Below the pieces are notes generated by a model. The model saw only the letters and a list, made by a program, of their open reading frames with translations. It searched no databases and was not told where the DNA came from. Positions 333 through 6,191 of a stretch of DNA of 6,191 nt are shown piece by piece; the stretch's first letter is position 1; each line of letters begins with the position of its first letter. The stretch is taken from positions 1 through 6,191 of the IMG/VR virus record IMGVR_UViG_3300029437_000087; one strand, 5' to 3'. This DNA is from a virus (lineage: Duplodnaviria; Heunggongvirae; Uroviricota; Caudoviricetes). The translations under genes were made by a program, and so were the position numbers.

Positions 333-696
333 CAAACGGCATCAACTCACAATGCGCCTGAACGAATCCGGCCCCATAAGCTGTATACGGGTCGACGAAG
401 GTCACACGGTAATCACGGCCCTGATACGTCACGATATCGGCATCACGGCCAGTCTGTCCCTGCGTCAGTCGCTCAGTCGTCACAATCAGAATTGCACCAC
501 TGATTACCTGCCCGGCCTGCATACGACGGTTTTCCAGAGAGCGATCAACAGTAACGACTCCGGCAAACTGCTTTTTAACTTCGCTGTCGCTGCCGATTCC
601 GTCCTCATCCACCGTTTGCACACGGCGTGTTACCCACAAATTGAAGTCGCAAAAATCGGGGTCAAAAAGCACATCTGTTACATCAAGAGTCGGCAT
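307..696 (-). CDS. hypothetical phage head-tail (neck) region protein, 129 aa
   Basis: ORF-track ORF. ATG at 696..694 preceded by GAGGG with 6-nt spacing (minus-strand context GTGAGGGATAAAGATG). Start overlaps the upstream gene's stop by 14 nt. Same orientation and packing as the neighbouring structural genes. No family recognised from sequence alone. Confidence 0.6.
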   Translation of the reverse strand: MPTLDVTDVLFDPDFCDFNLWVTRRVQTVDEDGIGSDSEVKKQFAGVVTVDRSLENRRMQAGQVISGAILIVTTERLTQGQTGRDADIVTYQGRDYRVTFVDPYTAYGAGFVQAHCELMPFDGGTPVEQ

Positions 697-1198
697 CTTT
701 ATCCCTCACTACATGGGTAATAGCTCTGCGATATTGCCCGGTGTCAATTAATGGTTTCGCCAGATCGGTTCCGGGAGATTCGCCAGCAACACGCCGGGCG
801 AGTTCCAGTGTTGCCCCCTTGCGCCCCCGACGAGCCCGGGCTTCAACAGTACTGTCAGCAAGCGGCGTAAAGCCGGTAATGGTCATGTAACGCCTGACGC
901 CATTAACGGCCAGCGTTCCGGCACGGTTGAGTGCACTTTCTGCTCCCGCANNNNNNNNNNTCTGCTCTTCTGCCGATTTAACGCCGGGGACCAGGTGAGG
1001 TCGTGGCGGGATGTTCTGCTCTGGTGAGCCGTATTCGTTGAGGTAACCGATGCCCGCATTACCAAACGGAACATCATCCCGTTCGCTGTCTTCCGAAGGG
1101 ATGCCGACCAGCACATCTTTTTTGGTTAACGACCTGAGCGCATCCAGAATGGCCTTAGCGTTATCCACCCTCGTTGTTACACCGCTTTTGAAACTCAT
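683..1198 (-). CDS. putative head-tail joining / virion morphogenesis protein (HK97 gp10-like), 171 aa, interrupted by a 10-N run
   Basis: ORF-track ORF. The ATG at 1198..1196 overlaps the TGA of the upstream gene (ATGA, 4-nt overlap). Motifs [10 protein letters not shown] and [12 protein letters not shown] resemble the PARPF / DTG-LR-SI motifs I recall in HK97 gp10 / Mu G-type proteins; this is recollection, not an alignment. Residues translated as XXXX come from N bases at 951..960. Confidence 0.55.
951..960. other. run of 10 ambiguous bases (N) inside the 683..1198 CDS
   Basis: Literal nnnnnnnnnn in the sequence. The flanking reading frame is continuous across it only if the true length is 10 nt (or 10 plus a multiple of 3). 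Confidence 0.99.
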
Positions 1199-1976: not shown

Positions 1977-2918
1977 TCAGATACCGTCCACATAGGACAG
2001 AGTTTCTTTATACACTGGCTCGACTGCACCCAGCTTGCCGTAGTAAGTGACGATCTGATACAGGCCGCGATACTGCACCGGCACGCTCTGAAGCGGAACC
2101 AGCGGGTAGCGGACGTATTTTTTATCGTTGGTGTACGCAACCATGCGATCCTTATTCCCCACACCACGGCCTTTCAGCCATTTAACCGCGCGGATATTCA
2201 GCGGAACACCGTTCTGGTGATAGCTGATGGTGTTGGTCTGAAGGTACGTCAACAGGGACTGGTTACCCGCAGATGAAACGATGATGCTGGACAACAGAGC
2301 AAACTGTTCAGGCGGGATCAGCAAATCACGCGGGACCACAGAGTAACCAGAAGCGGCCCACGCATCAGACAGCACCTGGTTAATGCTTGCGCGGATTTCG
2401 TCCGGTGTTGAGGTTGCCCACGTTTTGGCAGCGTTGTTGACAGGCACGCCGTCCAGGGTAACAAGGCCTTTCAGGTTTAATGCGGAATCGCCAACATATA
2501 CCTGTTCATCGTTATCCATCTGCCATTTCAGTTGCATCCCGTCATACTTCTGCGTATCAATCGGGCGGCCGACCTGCTGAGCAGCCTGCAATTCTATGAC
2601 CGTCCAGCCAAGTTCCATCCCCCACAGGTTCAGCGGGTTACCGGATTTGCCGGTATCCACGTTCACGCCAGCAATAGCGGTTGAGTCTTTGCCTACCCAG
2701 TTTTTGCCATTCGGATTTGCACCAGTACCCGCAGCGGCGAAGCTGGTATTCGTCCAGCTGGAAATGTCATCTGCGATAGAGACATCTTCACGCAACTGAA
2801 TATCGCGGGTCCAGGTGTACCCCACCAGTGGCAGGTTCAGCGTCTGGTCGAGTCGCTCCAGCTCCCCGATGAGAAAGGCACCAGAGCTGTCAACGGTTGC
2901 CTGATCAAAAGTAATCAT
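1977..2918 (-). CDS. phage major capsid protein (DUF2184-like family), 313 aa
   Basis: ORF-track ORF. ATG at 2918..2916 with Shine-Dalgarno AGGAA (minus-strand TAAGGAACAGACGAATG). Length, N-terminus (MITFDQATVDSSGAFLIGELERLDQTLNLPLVGYTWTRDI) and position after DUF2213-like and small beta-rich genes match my recollection of the DUF2184 capsid family in BPP-1-like head modules. Not verified by search. Confidence 0.75.
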   Translation of the reverse strand: MITFDQATVDSSGAFLIGELERLDQTLNLPLVGYTWTRDIQLREDVSIADDISSWTNTSFAAAGTGANPNGKNWVGKDSTAIAGVNVDTGKSGNPLNLWGMELGWTVIELQAAQQVGRPIDTQKYDGMQLKWQMDNDEQVYVGDSALNLKGLVTLDGVPVNNAAKTWATSTPDEIRASINQVLSDAWAASGYSVVPRDLLIPPEQFALLSSIIVSSAGNQSLLTYLQTNTISYHQNGVPLNIRAVKWLKGRGVGNKDRMVAYTNDKKYVRYPLVPLQSVPVQYRGLYQIVTYYGKLGAVEPVYKETLSYVDGI

Positions 2919-2929
2919 TCGTCTGTTCC

Positions 2930-3436
2930 TTAAATCTTCCAGGAAATTTCTGCATTGCCGTTAGCATCACCGGCACCTGTGAATTCAGCGTTGGTCAGCA
3001 CCACATTTTTGCCACTGACTGACGTGGACATGAATCCACCCAGCGGCACTTTGATGGATTCATCAGTGGAGACGACAACGTATACCGGGTCGCCTTTTTT
3101 GATAGTGCTGGCATCAAAATCAGAACCGAGATTAACGGTCACGTAGCCACGCTTCATGGCGTCGCCCGGGAAGTTCTTGCCTGTTCCCACCTGGCGAACC
3201 ATGTCCGGCTGCGACGTGGTCGGATAAGGGCGCACGTAGATCCCCTTCACCTTGTCTGCGGTATCACCATCTGCCAGCGGCACGAAAAAACCGTCATCAT
3301 CGTATTTACCAGCCAGCCCATAGGCAGCGAAGGCGTTATCGGATTTAAGGACCACCGGTTCGACGGTTAAGTCCTGCGGGCGAGAGACAGCCCCGGCAAT
3401 ACCAACAGGCATCCGGTACAGAAATACATTATTCAT
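2930..3436 (-). CDS. small phage head structural protein, possible capsid cement/decoration protein, 168 aa
   Basis: ORF-track ORF. ATG at 3436..3434, 3 nt after the upstream stop, with AAGGG upstream. Gly/Val/Thr-rich, beta-like composition. Sits between the DUF2213-like gene and the capsid gene, where cement/decoration genes occur in related head modules. The functional assignment is positional inference. Confidence 0.55.
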   Translation of the reverse strand: MNNVFLYRMPVGIAGAVSRPQDLTVEPVVLKSDNAFAAYGLAGKYDDDGFFVPLADGDTADKVKGIYVRPYPTTSQPDMVRQVGTGKNFPGDAMKRGYVTVNLGSDFDASTIKKGDPVYVVVSTDESIKVPLGGFMSTSVSGKNVVLTNAEFTGAGDANGNAEISWKI

Positions 3437-3439
3437 TTT

Positions 3440-4660
3440 TTACCCTTTACGGTTTGCCCAGAATTCAGCGTTTTGTTTGTTCAGGGAAGCGATACTGGTC
3501 ATGCCCATGTTTAGGCGCTGTGCATCGCCGGTGGTGGCGCGGGTGTTTCGCCCTTTGGCAATCTCAGACACGGCATTAAACGCCATGTCGACCGATTGTT
3601 TCGGCAATTTGCGGATATCCGCATCACCGACTATCTGGCGAACCAGCGTTTTGTCAGCGGAAGCCAGAACCTCGCGTTTGAACGCGGTCGGTTTCATCTT
3701 ACGGCTCAGATCGATACCCGGAACAATAACTTCGGCACGCCAGGCTGAGTCACCAGTAATCGTGGTTTCCTCTTCATCGTCCTCGCCGTCACCGGTCGGA
3801 TTATCGTCAGGCTTATTATCGTTATCGCCCGTGGCATTTCCTTCCAGCTTAGCCAGCAGGGCTTTCAGTAATGTTTTGAGGTCATCATCACTGTCGCCGG
3901 TTGGGCCTCCCCCCATCTCTGGTGCTTTGTCCGGTAGTGGTTGCTGCGGGGACAGGTTGATATTGAGATTAACGCCCTGCGGCAAATCCCCCTCATCTCC
4001 TGTAACCGATGCGGGAGCCGACTCCACCAGTTCGTTCATGGTGTCGGCATCTCCTGTCTTGATGGCCGCACGCATGCGGTTCCACCAGTTTTTCTTTTGA
4101 TTTGCCATTGTGTCTCTGTCTCCAATTGCACAACGATTTCCGGCTCTGCCTTTAGGGACAAGAGCCACATGGTTTCCGGTAATATCGACCTGCTCAGCTT
4201 TACCTGGCTCGGTCTGCTCGTACTCCGCGTCATAGCCGCACGACACTTCGCGCAGGCCATCTTCGATAAGCTGAATGGCGTTTTCGTCTTTGACGATAAG
4301 GTCAGCCAGCATCAAATCAGACTGCTCACCCGTCCCGCGCCGGACATTCTGGAGGTGCCCGACAGCAAGCTCTTTCCAGTTCTCGGGATTTACCAGCCGC
4401 ACATTCCCGTTTTCATCTTCAGGATGCAGAATCGTGATGCTCATCCCTTCGAATGAGGCAAGCGTGGCCGGATGGAATACCTGCTCAGGAGAACGCGTGA
4501 CGATTATTTCACCGAACTTATCGGGTTTCAGTTTTGGCAGGTCATCAGCACCATAGAGCTGCTTACCTGTTCGTCCTATCGGCACGTCTCTGCACAGCAA
4601 CGAGCCGTCAGCCAGCTGATAGCGGGTTTCCCCCAGCCGGGTATTGAAAAAATATTTCAT
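3440..4660 (-). CDS. DUF2213-like head morphogenesis protein with acidic scaffold-like C-terminal half (putative prohead protease/scaffold fusion), 406 aa
   Basis: ORF-track ORF. ATG at 4660..4658 with AGGT upstream. N-terminal ~180 aa (..GNHVALVPKGRAGNRCAIGD) resembles what I recall of DUF2213. The C-terminal half is acidic and low-complexity (TGDSDDDLKTLLKALLAKLEGNATGDNDNKPDDNPTGDGEDDEEETTITGD) and then helical, as in scaffolding proteins. Function is inferred, not demonstrated. Confidence 0.7.
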   Translation of the reverse strand: MKYFFNTRLGETRYQLADGSLLCRDVPIGRTGKQLYGADDLPKLKPDKFGEIIVTRSPEQVFHPATLASFEGMSITILHPEDENGNVRLVNPENWKELAVGHLQNVRRGTGEQSDLMLADLIVKDENAIQLIEDGLREVSCGYDAEYEQTEPGKAEQVDITGNHVALVPKGRAGNRCAIGDRDTMANQKKNWWNRMRAAIKTGDADTMNELVESAPASVTGDEGDLPQGVNLNINLSPQQPLPDKAPEMGGGPTGDSDDDLKTLLKALLAKLEGNATGDNDNKPDDNPTGDGEDDEEETTITGDSAWRAEVIVPGIDLSRKMKPTAFKREVLASADKTLVRQIVGDADIRKLPKQSVDMAFNAVSEIAKGRNTRATTGDAQRLNMGMTSIASLNKQNAEFWANRKG

Positions 4661-4674
4661 GTGTTACCTGCGAT

Positions 4675-5448
4675 TCAGGCGGGATAAGATTGGGAGGTGG
4701 GAAAAACGATTTCTTTATAACAGCGACAATTCGGGAGCTCGCCAGCGTGACCTGTCATGCCGTCAAGCGTTGGAGGTTTGCCCCATTCGACAAATTTACC
4801 TTCCATTTCCCGATGAGAATGCCTGACGTCACCATCTTCGGCTGTACGCCAGATATAACCATTCGAACCAATTGACAGCGCACGCGCCTGATCCAGCGCG
4901 CCGGTTGCACGTCCAAGTTCAGTACGGGCAATCAGGTCAGCTCTGGACTTTGCTATATCACCCGATGCGGCTATTTCTTTAGCAAAATATTCTGCTCTCC
5001 CACCGGTCACAACAGCTTCTGTCGCCCGATTCTGGATGTCGTACACCCTGTCAGCCGCCTCGAGGGGGAGCGATTTGATGTACTTGACCTGTTCGGCGAT
5101 GATGGATTGCATCACCTGGCCCACAGGAGCGCTTTCCACAAGATTGCGGAGCTCGCGACTGATGTTCTTGCTGTGTTGCCGCCAAACTTTCTCGTTCTGC
5201 CGGGTTAGGTCCGCAGTAAAGTTTTCCGCGACCTTTGTCGCCCAGGGGGTGATGATTTCACTGTAGCGTTCCAGCGCCTCAATAATTTCCGTGATACTGT
5301 CATTTGAACCATCGTAGCGACCATTTACGATGTCTCCGACCGCCCGCGCTATCCTGCGTAGGCTGGTTCGATAGCGGATTTCCGCCTGACGGTTCCTGCG
5401 GTTCGTCATCAGATTCGCCGATGCCGGGCGGCGCTTCATCTTCGGCAT
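4675..5448 (-). CDS. phage head morphogenesis protein, Mu F / SPP1 gp7 family, 257 aa
   Basis: ORF-track ORF. ATG at 5448..5446 with GAGGA 8 nt upstream. The C-terminal signature ADLIARTE ... DGDVRHSHREMEGK ... GELPNCRCY matches the conserved core of MuF-like minor head proteins as I recall it. The ORF ends right after this core, so there is no C-terminal cargo domain. Confidence 0.85.
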   Translation of the reverse strand: MPKMKRRPASANLMTNRRNRQAEIRYRTSLRRIARAVGDIVNGRYDGSNDSITEIIEALERYSEIITPWATKVAENFTADLTRQNEKVWRQHSKNISRELRNLVESAPVGQVMQSIIAEQVKYIKSLPLEAADRVYDIQNRATEAVVTGGRAEYFAKEIAASGDIAKSRADLIARTELGRATGALDQARALSIGSNGYIWRTAEDGDVRHSHREMEGKFVEWGKPPTLDGMTGHAGELPNCRCYKEIVFPTSQSYPA

Positions 5449-6191
5449 TCTCGATGTCCTCGTCGGTAATGGATGCCCCGATGCCGGTTACGTCAGAATT
5501 TTCGCGCAAATCAGTCATAGCGGCTTTCAGTGTCATCAGACCATCACCCAGCGCCGTACTGATTGCGTTGGTAGTGTTTAACGCCACCGTTGAGCGATCG
5601 ACATCAGACATTTGCCAGAGCGGGTTAAACTCAAACGTGAAATCGTCCGGCAGCGGCTTGCCAAGCTCCGAACGATGCATGATGTCCAGTATCCGCCGCA
5701 CCGGAAGACGTAAACGCCTCTCCTGTAACGAGCTTACCCGGTCGTAATAGTTGGCAAGGTCTGCATCGCCGGTAGAAAATCCTTTCGGGGACTGTCCGAA
5801 CAACCGCACCAGTGGGATACCAACAGCGCCACTAATCTGTTCTGCAAACTGCGAAAGGATGTCATCCAGACCACTGAAGCTGTACTGATGCGTTTCAAAC
5901 TTATCCCGCGAGTCCATGAGTGTCATACCTTCATTGCTCTGGAACTGTCGAATCAGGTCGATATTCTTCAGCAACGCTTCATACGCAGGACCACCAAGTG
6001 CGATAAGCTCGCGTAGCTTCTCCACGCTGTAGGTGCGCAGATGCGCCTTGTAGACCAGCTGCGCCGCGCCGACAGTAGCGCTGTCGAACGCGGTAAGACG
6101 ATCCCAGATACGCTCTACAACCGACATTCCCCATTCGTTCTCGGTCATCTTCTGCTGAAATGGCAGCGTGACGCCATCAAAGCGAATCAGG
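5300..6191 (-). CDS. phage portal protein, C-terminal part (5' end of gene lies beyond window end)
   Basis: Track ORF 5300..6148 begins at an internal Met; I checked that the same frame stays open from 6149 to 6190 (..LIRFDGVTLPFQQK-MTENEW..), so the gene starts outside the window. Lies directly upstream of the MuF-like gene, the usual portal position. Acidic disordered C-terminal tail. Family call is from context and recollection. Confidence 0.7.
   Translation of the reverse strand, partial: LIRFDGVTLPFQQKMTENEWGMSVVERIWDRLTAFDSATVGAAQLVYKAHLRTYSVEKLRELIALGGPAYEALLKNIDLIRQFQSNEGMTLMDSRDKFETHQYSFSGLDDILSQFAEQISGAVGIPLVRLFGQSPKGFSTGDADLANYYDRVSSLQERRLRLPVRRILDIMHRSELGKPLPDDFTFEFNPLWQMSDVDRSTVALNTTNAISTALGDGLMTLKAAMTDLRENSDVTGIGASITDEDIENAEDEAPPGIGESDDEPQEPSGGNPLSNQPTQDSAGGRRHRKWSLRWFK

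What the first reader, a model, noticed from the sequence alone, without database searches (positions are those of the whole stretch)
5300..5448. 149-nt out-of-frame overlap between portal 3' end and MuF-like gene 5' end
The portal frame runs to a TGA at 5302..5300, while the MuF-like gene has a well-placed ATG at 5448 (GAGGA, 8-nt spacing). About 49 codons are therefore dual-coded: the portal tail ..DEDIENAEDEAPPGIGESDDEPQEPSGGNPLSNQPTQDSAGGRRHRKWSLRWFK against the MuF N-terminus MPKMKRRPASANLMTNRRNRQAEIRYRTSLRRIARAVGD... Even the latest plausible MuF start (ATG at 5409) leaves over 100 nt of overlap. Either this is a genuine long overlap with the MuF RBS embedded in the portal tail, or an indel has artificially extended the portal frame. 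The odd basic end of the portal tail (RRHRKWSLRWFK) makes the second possibility worth excluding.
Basis: seen in the sequence. Interest (0 to 1): 0.45.

Follow-up and report, generated by a model that had tools for sequence, protein, structure and literature searches.

The report
Conserved double-coding portal/MuF gene overlap
In this E. coli prophage the last 49 codons of the portal gene are also the first 49 codons of the next head gene, read in another frame; the overlap is real, is conserved across many related phages and appears to be selected in both frames, but it is a good example of a known phenomenon, not a new one.

Summary
On the minus strand the portal ORF ends at TGA 5302..5300. 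The MuF-like ORF opens at ATG 5448..5446 behind GAGGA (5461..5457, 8-nt spacer), giving a 149-nt overlap with MuF in the +1 frame.

It is not an indel artefact. The window is 100% identical to a prophage of E. coli H10407. Every annotated relative examined, down to 79% DNA identity, has a 1467- or 1470-nt portal, and the junction aligns without gaps. Of the 120 best portal homologues, 106 (down to 58% identity) end in the same DS…LRWF tail.

MuF residues 14–50, encoded inside the portal gene, are conserved down to 59% identity. Synonymous portal sites preserve the start codon (T-ending codon in 36/37) and the GAGGA (GAG in 35/36). ATG 5448 is therefore favoured over PGAP's ATG 5409, and over the post-stop starts annotated in SEN34 and yong1.

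Both frames look selected. MuF synonymous diversity falls from 0.55 to 0.34 inside the overlap (p = 5e-5). Rare codons (ATA 37/37, CTA 35/37) and GGT 37/37 hold the portal residues T, S and F.

No expression data exist. Verdict: a genuine conserved dual-coding overlap and a new member of a known kind. Many relatives have the MuF start annotated too far downstream.

The parts
5300..6191 (-). 3' part of the portal gene (DUF1073 / Phage_portal_3). It runs off the window edge. The full gene is 1467 nt in the identical H10407 prophage. Stop is TGA 5302..5300.
   Evidence: Pfam PF06381 E = 1e-63; RefSeq CDS WP_000113491.1; PDB relatives Pam3 and E217 portals.
4675..5448 (-). MuF-like / SPP1 gp7-family minor head (head morphogenesis) gene, long form of 257 aa.
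   Evidence: PF04233 64.2 bits and TIGR01641 41.1 bits. phrog_324 matches residues 6-255. Homologues down to 59% identity cover residues 14-257.
5300..5448 (-). 149-nt double-coding overlap: 48 portal sense codons plus the stop, and MuF codons 1-49 in the +1 frame.
   Evidence: MuF is +1 relative to the portal in 60 of the 61 loci where both genes were found; the exception, L032, has its MuF 5' part out of frame.
5457..5461 (-). Shine-Dalgarno GAGGA for MuF, built from portal codons GAG-GAC (E-D).
   Evidence: The Glu codon is GAG in 35/36 non-redundant relatives, whereas other unconstrained Glu columns mostly use GAA. GAGGA is present in all enteric loci, and a different GGGGAG is present where the portal sequence differs.
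5446..5448 (-). Favoured MuF start codon ATG, formed by portal codons AAT|GCC (N-A).
   Evidence: The portal N/D/S codon is T-ending in 36/37, versus about 56% T at neighbouring Asp codons. An ATG or GTG lies 143-158 nt before the portal stop in almost all enteric loci and in the second subfamily.
5407..5409 (-). Alternative MuF start ATG (M14), chosen by PGAP in H10407. It gives a 110-nt overlap.
   Evidence: A start here (ATG or TTG) is missing in many lineages, including Rahnella, Erwinia, Yersinia and Xenorhabdus. No good SD was seen upstream by direct reading.
5302..5385 (-). MuF residues 22-49 (AEIRYRTSLRRIARAVGDIVNGRYDGSN): the conserved N-terminal segment encoded inside the portal gene.
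   Evidence: Amino-acid diversity is 0.24. G38, I40 and Y45-N49 are at least 90% conserved in alignment A1. MuF-frame pN/pS = 0.37.
5303..5431 (-). Portal C-terminal tail (APPGIGESDDEPQEPSGGNPLSNQPTQDSAGGRRHRKWSLRWFK): an acidic linker followed by a basic/aromatic end.
   Evidence: AF2 gives pLDDT < 50 and no secondary structure for fragment residues 254-296. Composition was read.
5348..5353 (-). Portal codons GAT AGC (D-S), invariant in 37/37. They force the rare MuF codon ATA at I33 and a fixed third-position G at the variable MuF residue 32.
5300..5317 (-). Portal end L-R-W-F-K-stop (CTA CGA TGG TTC AAA TGA), overlapping MuF Y45-D46-G47-S48-N49.
   Evidence: MuF codons are TAC 37/37, GAT 36/37 and GGT 37/37. 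An RWF or RRF end occurs in 106/120 portal homologues.
5281..5283 (-). ATT (MuF I56). Relatives at 90% DNA identity or less have ATG here, and annotators use it as the MuF start (609-nt CDS). It is not a start codon in this window.
   Evidence: Alignment; annotations.

Best explanation
This is a genuine, evolutionarily maintained out-of-frame overlap in the late (head) operon of a SEN34/Brunovirus-like temperate myophage integrated in E. coli.

How it most likely works: the MuF-like minor head protein is most likely initiated independently at ATG 5448. Its Shine-Dalgarno (GAGGA) and start codon are built from the portal codons for …D-E-D-I-E-N-A…. Ribosomes translating the portal continue for another 48 codons to TGA 5300. 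The same 149 nt therefore encode two things:
- in the portal frame, a disordered acidic linker ending in a conserved basic/aromatic peptide (…DS…W.LRWFK);
- in the +1 frame, a basic N-terminal peptide and the first conserved (probably helical) segment of MuF.

What is shown: the ORFs, their family membership, conservation of the arrangement, and signatures of purifying selection in both frames and on the SD and ATG.

What is inferred: that both products are made from these coordinates; that initiation is de novo rather than termination-reinitiation, because the portal stop lies 149 nt downstream of the start; that portal-frame ribosome traffic over the MuF initiation site helps keep MuF a minor product; and that the portal end motif acts as a short docking peptide inside the procapsid.

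Evolutionary reading: relatives outside the Enterobacterales have 8-92-nt overlaps. The long overlap therefore looks like an extension of the portal tail, by overprinting, over the MuF N-terminal coding region, which then came under selection.
For: (1) Not an artefact.
- 100% identity to NC_017633 and four other complete genomes; 382 E. coli genomes carry the region.
- The portal CDS is 1467 or 1470 nt in all annotated relatives examined, down to 79% DNA identity.
- The junction alignment is gap-free.

(2) The MuF N-terminus inside the portal gene is real coding sequence.
- Residues 14-50 are conserved in Xenorhabdus, Pantoea, Morganella, Providencia and Arsenophonus homologues (59-72% identity).
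- phrog_324 aligns from residue 6.
- tblastn matches reach query residue 1-2 in many genera.
- MuF-frame pN/pS is 0.37 in the overlap.

(3) Start at 5448.
- The portal codon carrying the T of the ATG is T-ending in 36/37 sequences.
- The Glu codon of the GAGGA is GAG in 35/36, against mostly GAA at other unconstrained Glu columns.
- Xenorhabdus loci with a different portal sequence still have an ATG 134-149 nt before the portal stop, behind GGGGAG, with the frame closed just upstream.
- A second portal subfamily (Citrobacter koseri, Klebsiella aerogenes) has an ATG at 149/152 nt behind GAGGA.
- An M14-type start is absent in many lineages.
- The initiation region folds less stably than 195/200 shuffles.

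(4) The portal frame is also selected.
- MuF synonymous diversity is 0.344 in residues 22-49 against 0.552 outside (Mann-Whitney p = 5.4e-5).
- Near-frozen synonymous sites number 8/22 inside against 5/138 outside (Fisher p = 3e-5).
- Rare codons are fixed: I33 ATA 37/37 (13% elsewhere), L30 CTA 35/37 (6%), R27 CGA 24/25 (9%). G47 GGT is 37/37 (37% elsewhere) and D46 GAT is 36/37.
- Portal-frame pN/pS is 0.91 in the overlap, against 1.5-2.5 for the same -1 frame elsewhere in MuF.
- D280, S281, L292, R293, W294 and F295 are at least 90% conserved in 86 portals, and 106/120 homologues end in …RWF.

(5) The tail is predicted disordered.
Against: - There is no transcript, ribosome-profiling or proteomic evidence for either product's ends. 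The SEN34 paper contains none.
- The compared sequences share ancestry, so raw counts such as 36/37 overstate independence. The inside-versus-outside comparisons on the same sequences are the safer tests.
- For MuF residues 1-13 neither frame clearly dominates: synonymous diversity is 0.28-0.34 in both. The conserved MPK.KRR could partly be a by-product of the portal's conserved AEDEAPP.
- PGAP chooses ATG 5409.
- The tail is not universal. Arsenophonus portals stop 22 aa earlier, and a solved relative (9jlf, 444 aa) ends just after the PPGLGE motif.
- The AF2 model of MuF is of low confidence (pLDDT 52), so the helical N-terminus is only suggested.
Confidence: 0.8

Rival explanations
1. Sequencing or mutational indel artefact: a single-base indel has shifted the portal frame, so a false tail (…RRHRKWSLRWFK) reads into MuF.
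For: Only the unusual composition of the tail and its rare codons (CGG AGA … CTA CGA), read. Some distant portals end earlier.
Against: The identical sequence occurs in five complete genomes, and the region in 382. Portal length is constant and the alignment gap-free down to 79% DNA identity. The tail end is the best-conserved part. The rare codons are explained by the other frame.
Confidence: 0.01
2. The overlap is real, but MuF starts at ATG 5409 (M14), as PGAP annotates. The overlap would then be 110 nt, and the 13 upstream codons are merely open.
For: RefSeq CDS of 735 nt. Many database homologues begin at this position (244-245 aa). An ATG or TTG is present here in the E. coli, Salmonella and Citrobacter lineages. 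Distant MuFs with short overlaps have about 10 residues before the ERRY motif, as the M14 form does.
Against: There is no start codon at this position in Rahnella, Erwinia, Yersinia, several Xenorhabdus and other loci, all of which have the upstream ATG or GTG. No SD precedes 5409. Synonymous portal sites preserve the upstream ATG and GAGGA. Both starts might be used.
Confidence: 0.17
3. There is no functional overlap: MuF starts after the portal stop, as annotated in SEN34, Hafnia phage yong1, vB_EcoM-606R2 and many prophages (CDSs of 531-609 nt).
For: Those annotations.
Against: In the window the corresponding codon is ATT (5283..5281), and no ATG, GTG or TTG lies between 5409 and 16 nt past the portal stop. 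The roughly 50 upstream residues are conserved as protein down to 59% identity, with a synonymous substitution pattern in the MuF frame.
Confidence: 0.02
4. The overlap is real, but only MuF is constrained. The portal tail beyond the PPG motif is a tolerated, functionless read-through that ends wherever the MuF sequence happens to create a stop.
For: Much of the tail's conservation is forced by MuF: YDGS dictates xCGAxGGxTC. The tail is predicted disordered. It is shorter in Arsenophonus and absent in 9jlf-type and non-enteric relatives. The chance of an open frame per sequence is about 13%.
Against: The free positions (MuF third bases) are frozen, with rare codons, exactly where they specify portal T, D, S, W and F. 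They thaw again at the portal stop: S48-T53 show diversity of 0.41-0.74. MuF pS drops from about 0.70 to 0.44, and the -1-frame pN/pS is 0.91 against 1.5-2.5 elsewhere. W at position -2 is also kept in Pandoraea and Cupriavidus, where MuF reads PAGDP instead of YDGSN.
Confidence: 0.18
5. A programmed +1 (or -2) ribosomal frameshift within the overlap produces a portal-MuF fusion protein.
For: MuF is +1 relative to the portal in every intact locus. PHROG families annotated 'portal protein' match the MuF domain at their C-terminal ends (phrog_2662, 859, 12), which suggests that fused forms exist. Rare Arg and Leu codons occur in the portal frame near the end.
Against: No conserved slippery or stop-context motif exists. 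The portal ends variously as AAA TGA, CGA TAG or …TGKR*. The invariant nucleotide runs are explained by double coding. There is no Rfam hit or stable structure. An own SD and ATG are conserved. The suspected precedent failed: the E217 portal's extra C-terminal domain is a pyrophosphatase domain, not MuF.
Confidence: 0.03

Closest known systems
Portal/MuF junctions of related head modules (Pseudomonas phage E217/Pa193, Aeromonas phage 62AhydR11PP, Vibrio phage 1.054.O, Aaphi23, and non-enteric prophages of the same family)
   Same: The gene order is the same: portal (PF06381), MuF (PF04233), DUF2213/Pa193_gp24 scaffold-like protein, cement protein, major capsid protein. The MuF start lies at or inside the portal 3' end.
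   Different: Overlaps there are 1 nt (E217, Aeromonas phage), 8-26 nt (Burkholderiales, Sulfuricella and Bryobacteraceae MAGs), 38 nt (Vibrio phage), 80 nt (Aaphi23) and 74-92 nt (Acinetobacter, Thiobacillus). Here the overlap is 149 nt, and the portal reads through the conserved MuF N-terminal segment.
Classical out-of-frame double-coding (overprinted) phage gene pairs, e.g. phiX174 D/E and A/B/K, MS2 L over coat/replicase, lambda Rz/Rz1 (from general knowledge; reviewed in PMC8227390, which I listed but did not read in detail)
   Same: Two proteins are read from one stretch of DNA in different frames. Synonymous variation is reduced. One frame shows atypical codon usage and encodes a disordered, compositionally biased product.
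   Different: Here no whole new gene is embedded. The terminal segments of two old, conserved structural genes overlap: the C-terminal tail of one and the N-terminus of the next.
RefSeq/PGAP annotation of the same prophage (WP_000113491.1 portal, WP_000184969.1 head morphogenesis protein)
   Same: It already records an out-of-frame overlap between these two genes.
   Different: PGAP's overlap is 110 nt (start at 5409). In relatives the same pipeline gives no overlap (609-nt CDS). No description of the overlap was found in the papers searched.
SPP1 gp6 (portal) / gp7 (MuF-family minor head protein that binds the portal); this statement rests on general knowledge and was not checked here
   Same: The protein families and their adjacency are the same, and MuF-family proteins are low-copy head-internal proteins associated with the portal. 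This makes coupled expression plausible.
   Different: There is no evidence here for a physical interaction. Sequence similarity is limited to the PF04233/TIGR01641 domain.

Membership tests
Phage_Mu_F / SPP1 gp7 minor head protein family | Match to PF04233 and TIGR01641 above the curated cut-offs | tested here: met
   PF04233 64.2 bits (cut-off 29.6), residues 137-243. TIGR01641 41.1 bits (cut-off 39.65).
Phage_Mu_F / SPP1 gp7 minor head protein family | Gene located immediately downstream of the portal gene in a head-assembly module | tested here: met
   Order is TerS, TerL, portal, MuF, DUF2213, cement protein, MCP.
Phage_Mu_F / SPP1 gp7 minor head protein family | Protein present in procapsids or virions in low copy and bound to the portal | not testable with these tools
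   No proteomic or structural data exist for this phage group. There is no solved MuF relative.
Portal protein, Phage_portal_3 (DUF1073) | Match to PF06381 above cut-off, and homology to portals with solved structures | tested here: met
   215.7 bits for the 296-aa fragment. Pam3 portal 8hds E = 2.6e-37; E217 gp19.
Functional out-of-frame overlapping gene pair (double coding) | Both reading frames open across the shared segment, and this is conserved in relatives | tested here: met
   The portal frame is open in 48/48 and the MuF frame in 37/48 non-redundant loci over the last 150 nt, including all enteric loci except Arsenophonus L042. The arrangement was tabulated.
Functional out-of-frame overlapping gene pair (double coding) | Purifying selection detectable in each frame beyond what the other frame imposes | tested here: met
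   MuF frame pN/pS = 0.37. MuF synonymous diversity is 0.34 inside against 0.55 outside (p = 5e-5). Rare codons are fixed at sites that specify portal residues. Portal-frame pN/pS is 0.91 against 1.5-2.5 in the control.
Functional out-of-frame overlapping gene pair (double coding) | Both products actually translated from the shared segment | not testable with these tools
   This needs ribosome profiling or terminal peptides. Only sequence signals are available (SD and ATG conservation).
Programmed ribosomal frameshift site | Conserved slippery sequence with a stimulatory element at a fixed position | tested here: not met
   No conserved shift-prone motif was seen. The stop context varies. There is no Rfam match and no unusually stable fold.
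Portal-MuF fusion proteins | Portal and MuF domains in one continuous reading frame | tested here: not met
   The two frames differ by +1 and each has its own stop and start. E217 gp19, considered as a possible fusion, carries PF18823 instead.

The most novel reading that the evidence does not exclude
The portal's last roughly 20 residues (…DS…W.LRWF) are a functional short linear motif. It arose by overprinting on the alternative frame of the MuF N-terminal segment and is now co-encoded with it, so that two partners of the procapsid portal vertex are genetically locked together. The motif would dock MuF, scaffold or DNA inside the head. The overlap would also set the portal:MuF expression ratio.
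Probability: 0.4. Interest if true: 0.5.

Novelty: new member of a known kind. Interest (0 to 1): 0.35.

Why it matters
There are three practical consequences.

1. Annotation. In SEN34, Hafnia phage yong1, the vB_EcoM prophage-derived phages, Klebsiella phage ST405-OXA48phi1.2 and many RefSeq prophages, the MuF gene is started 40-70 codons too late. That start lies inside, or after, a conserved N-terminal segment. The same pipeline gives three different starts for near-identical genes.

2. Engineering. Any edit in 5300..5448 changes two structural proteins at once. Conversely, the overlap offers clean single-frame mutations. For example, ATG->ACG at 5448 is silent in the portal, and GAT->GAC at MuF D46 changes only the portal Trp.

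3. Biology. It adds a well-replicated case, across several Enterobacterales genera and two portal subfamilies, in which the ends of two ancient virion genes overlap by about 150 nt with selection in both frames. A graded series of 1- to 152-nt overlaps in relatives could be used to study how such overlaps grow.

It does not open a new class of mechanism.

Tried and rejected
- Indel artefact: rejected by the gap-free alignments and the conserved portal length and tail.
- MuF start after the portal stop: rejected, because that codon is ATT in the window and the upstream protein segment is conserved.
- Portal-MuF fusion precedent in Pbunavirus. I suspected that the unmodelled C-terminal 237 residues of the Pa193/E217 portal were MuF-like. 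Pfam shows an InPase domain instead, and a separate MuF gene with a 1-nt overlap.
- Programmed frameshift: no conserved slippery site, Rfam hit or stable fold.
- Solved MuF structures: none found even at E <= 10.
- AlphaFold2 of MuF from a 22-sequence alignment gave a poor model (pLDDT 52) and could not confirm how the N-terminal segment packs. No fold search was attempted on it.
- Virion proteomics for this phage group: none in the SEN34 paper. No paper describing this overlap was found.
- The promoter/terminator scan of 4600..6191 gave nothing above shuffle expectation.
- The antisense ORF 5304..5747 (+) was considered and set aside as a by-product of double coding. It has no homology evidence and was not searched.
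Full report
1. What is in the window

All genes lie on the minus strand:
- 3' part of a portal gene (PF06381), from the window edge to TGA 5302..5300.
- MuF/SPP1-gp7-like minor head gene (PF04233), ORF 5448..4675.
- DUF2213 (now called Pa193_gp24) scaffold-like gene, 4660..3440.
- Cement protein gene, 3436..2930.
- Major capsid protein gene, 2918..1977.

Positions 4600-6191 of the window, the stretch searched, are 100% identical to a prophage of E. coli ETEC H10407 and four other complete genomes. The region occurs in 382 of 5426 complete E. coli genomes. It also occurs in Salmonella phage SEN34 (Brunovirus), Citrobacter phage Omnitron, Hafnia phage yong1 and four vB_EcoM phages.

2. The observation

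Reading the minus strand gives GAGGA at 5461..5457, an 8-nt spacer, ATG at 5448..5446 and the portal stop TGA at 5302..5300. That is a 149-nt overlap with MuF in the +1 frame. Further in-frame ATGs lie at 5439 and 5409.

3. Is it an artefact?

No.
- In every annotated relative examined, the portal CDS is 1467 nt, or 1470 nt where AAC GAT AGC replaces AAT GAC and shifts the stop by one codon. This holds from 100% down to 79% DNA identity.
- The junction aligns without a single gap in 15 sequences.
- Of the 120 best portal homologues in the large protein collection, 106 end with …DS…(W).LRWF followed by K, KR, TGKR, PGKR and similar. These reach down to 58% identity and are 480-493 aa long.
- In an 86-sequence alignment, D280, S281, L292, R293, W294 and F295 are at least 90% conserved.

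4. Where does MuF begin?

Annotators disagree.
- PGAP starts it at 5409 in H10407 and in relatives of 92% DNA identity or more (735-nt CDS, 110-nt overlap).
- In relatives of 90% identity or less, PGAP and the phage depositors start it 14-17 nt after the portal stop (609 nt), or even later (531-549 nt).
- In the window, the codon equivalent to the 609-nt start is ATT (5283..5281).

The protein evidence places the start upstream.
- Homologues from Xenorhabdus, Pantoea, Morganella, Providencia and Arsenophonus (59-72% identity) conserve residues 14-50 (…RQAEIRYRTSLRxIAxAVGDIVNGRYDGSNDS…).
- phrog_324 aligns from residue 6.

Among 49 genome loci from one-per-species genomes, plus the annotated loci:
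- MuF is +1 relative to the portal in 60 of the 61 loci where both genes were found; the exception, L032, has its MuF 5' part out of frame.
- An ATG (GTG in Yersinia) lies 143-158 nt before the portal stop in almost all Enterobacterales loci.
- A start at the M14 position is missing in many lineages, including Rahnella, Erwinia, Yersinia and several Xenorhabdus.

Synonymous sites of the portal frame support selection for the signals.
- The N/D/S codon that supplies the T of the ATG is T-ending in 36/37 non-redundant sequences. Neighbouring Asp codons are roughly 50:50.
- The Glu codon that forms GAGGA is GAG in 35/36. Other unconstrained Glu columns mostly use GAA.

Two natural controls agree.
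- Five Xenorhabdus loci have a different portal crown and linker sequence. They nevertheless place an ATG 134-149 nt before the portal stop, behind GGGGAG, with the frame closed just upstream.
- A second portal subfamily (Citrobacter koseri, Klebsiella aerogenes, Klebsiella phage ST405-OXA48phi1.2) has an ATG at 149/152 nt behind GAGGA and a basic N-terminus, MLRPSGRRMNLKPALRRRSEIQYRKSL….

The initiation region is less structured than 195 of 200 shuffles.

I therefore favour 5448 (about 0.7). The 5409 start remains a live alternative or a second isoform. For residues 1-13 neither frame clearly dominates.

5. Are both frames selected?

The analysis used 37 non-redundant enteric sequences.
- MuF synonymous diversity is 0.344 for residues 22-49 and 0.552 for residues 50-250 (Mann-Whitney p = 5.4e-5).
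- Near-frozen synonymous sites number 8/22 inside the overlap and 5/138 outside (Fisher p = 3e-5).
- The frozen sites use rare codons. I33 is ATA in 37/37 (13% elsewhere), L30 is CTA in 35/37 (6%) and R27 is CGA in 24/25 (9%). G47 is GGT in 37/37 (37% elsewhere), D46 is GAT in 36/37 and Y45 is TAC in 37/37.
- These third positions are the first positions of the portal codons for S(-22), T(-18), S(-15), R(-3), W(-2) and F(-1). TAT at Y45 would create a portal stop.
- MuF residue 32 varies (R/Q/K/A/E), yet its third base is always G. That base gives portal D(-16).
- Diversity returns to 0.41-0.74 from S48 onward, exactly where the portal ends.

Nei-Gojobori-type counts agree.
- MuF-frame pS is 0.44 in the overlap against 0.69-0.73 outside.
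- Portal-frame pN/pS is 0.91 in the overlap, against 1.5-2.5 for the same -1 frame in the non-overlapping part of MuF.

Because both regions come from the same sequences, shared ancestry does not explain the contrast. W at position -2 is also kept in Pandoraea and Cupriavidus portals, where MuF reads PAGDP instead of YDGSN.

For a single sequence, an open portal frame across the overlap is only about 13% likely under synonymous recoding. The argument therefore rests on conservation.

6. Nature of the two products in the shared segment

- The portal tail after helix 243-251 of the fragment has pLDDT below 50 and no secondary structure in an AF2 model built from 86 sequences.
- It is strongly acidic (…DEDIENAEDEAPPGIGESDDEPQEP…) and ends basic and aromatic (RRHRKWSLRWFK).
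- The MuF N-terminus is basic (8 K/R in the first 21 residues), followed by a segment predicted helical at low confidence.
- Acidic GAN-rich codons read in +1 give Lys, Arg and Met codons, so the two compositions are complementary by construction. This is an inference from the genetic code.

7. Evolutionary context

Portal/MuF junction overlaps form a series:

| Overlap | Where |
|---|---|
| 1 nt | E217, Aeromonas phage 62AhydR11PP |
| 8 and 26 nt | Burkholderiales, Sulfuricella and Bryobacteraceae MAGs |
| 38 nt | Vibrio phage 1.054.O |
| 80 nt | Aaphi23 |
| 74-92 nt | Acinetobacter, Thiobacillus, Chitiniphilus, Arsenophonus |
| 143-158 nt | Enterobacterales |
| 152-167 nt | Pandoraea, Cupriavidus |

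In the short-overlap relatives the portal stops near the MuF start or at the beginning of the conserved MuF motif. In the enteric clade it reads through that motif. This looks like growth of the portal tail by overprinting, followed by selection on the new end. That interpretation is an inference.

8. Mechanism

The portal stop lies 149 nt downstream of the MuF start, so termination-reinitiation coupling is unlikely. Independent initiation at the conserved SD and ATG is the economical reading. Portal-translating ribosomes must cross the MuF initiation site. This would be expected to limit MuF synthesis relative to the portal, in keeping with a minor head protein. That step is not shown.

A programmed +1 frameshift producing a fusion was considered because the frame relation is constant and because PHROG families annotated 'portal protein' carry MuF-like C-terminal regions. 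However:
- no conserved shift site exists and the stop contexts differ;
- no RNA family or stable fold is present;
- the suspected fusion precedent in E217/Pa193 turned out to be a pyrophosphatase domain.

9. Verdict

It is a conserved, doubly constrained overlap between the ends of two old virion genes.

It belongs to the well-known class of overlapping phage genes, and a 110-nt version is already in RefSeq. It is therefore not categorically new. No description of it was found in the papers searched.

Its value lies in correcting MuF starts in many genomes and in offering a tractable, well-replicated model of double coding. Direct expression evidence is lacking.

Noticed in passing
window 951-960: A run of 10 N (masked or unknown bases) lies inside the minus-strand ORF 683..1198, whose translation shows XXXX.
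   Followed up: no
E. coli records H53 and H70-H74; L013 426-1892: PGAP names the same DUF1073/PF06381 portal 'anti-CBASS protein Acb1 family protein' in some genomes. E. coli B-lineage strains keep only a 177-nt remnant (98% identical) under that name. This looks like a naming problem rather than a different function.
   Followed up: no
L002 3738-4346; L003 3909-4517; L004 3986-4516; L064 3008-3556; L067 1957-2505: The MuF gene of close and distant relatives is annotated with at least four different starts (CDSs of 735, 609, 549 and 531 nt). Most cut off the conserved N-terminal 40-70 residues that lie inside the portal gene.
   Followed up: yes
window 5304-5747 (+ strand): A 147-aa antisense ORF runs opposite the portal tail. 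The antisense frame stays stop-free over the overlap in 36 of 48 loci. This is probably a by-product of two constrained sense frames. No homology search was done.
   Followed up: partly
L071 9124-11421 and 11421-12257 (Pseudomonas phage E217): The 765-aa E217 portal gp19 carries a C-terminal PF18823 inorganic-pyrophosphatase-like domain (residues 635-753, E = 3e-43). This falls in the region reported as unmodelled (529-765) in the Pa193 portal (PMC11456595). MuF (gp20) is separate and overlaps the portal by 1 nt.
   Followed up: partly
L031, L033, L034, L036, L040 (Xenorhabdus), about 200 nt upstream of the portal stop: These portals have a different crown and linker sequence (…SSYRMAQSEAERIMGSVGNGF…). 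They keep the same MuF N-terminus and the DS…LRWF end, which suggests a recombination (mosaic) joint just upstream of the overlap.
   Followed up: partly
L006-L014, positions 1-426: Two different large-terminase genes (1404-nt 'PBSX family' and 1623-nt 'TerL protein') sit upstream of near-identical portal genes in different E. coli prophages. The module boundary is at the terminase/portal junction, which itself overlaps by 1 nt.
   Followed up: no
L032 (Apirhabdus apintestini) about 2500-2700; L011 2532-3590: There are apparent inactivating changes in relatives. The MuF 5' part is out of frame in L032, and the DUF2213 gene is annotated as frameshifted in L011. These are probably decaying prophages.
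   Followed up: no
L042 (Candidatus Arsenophonus triatominarum); P0195, P0199: Arsenophonus portals stop 22 residues earlier (…GGNPISNEPE*), which reduces the overlap to 92 nt and removes the DS…LRWF end. This is a natural truncation that could show whether the motif is dispensable.
   Followed up: partly
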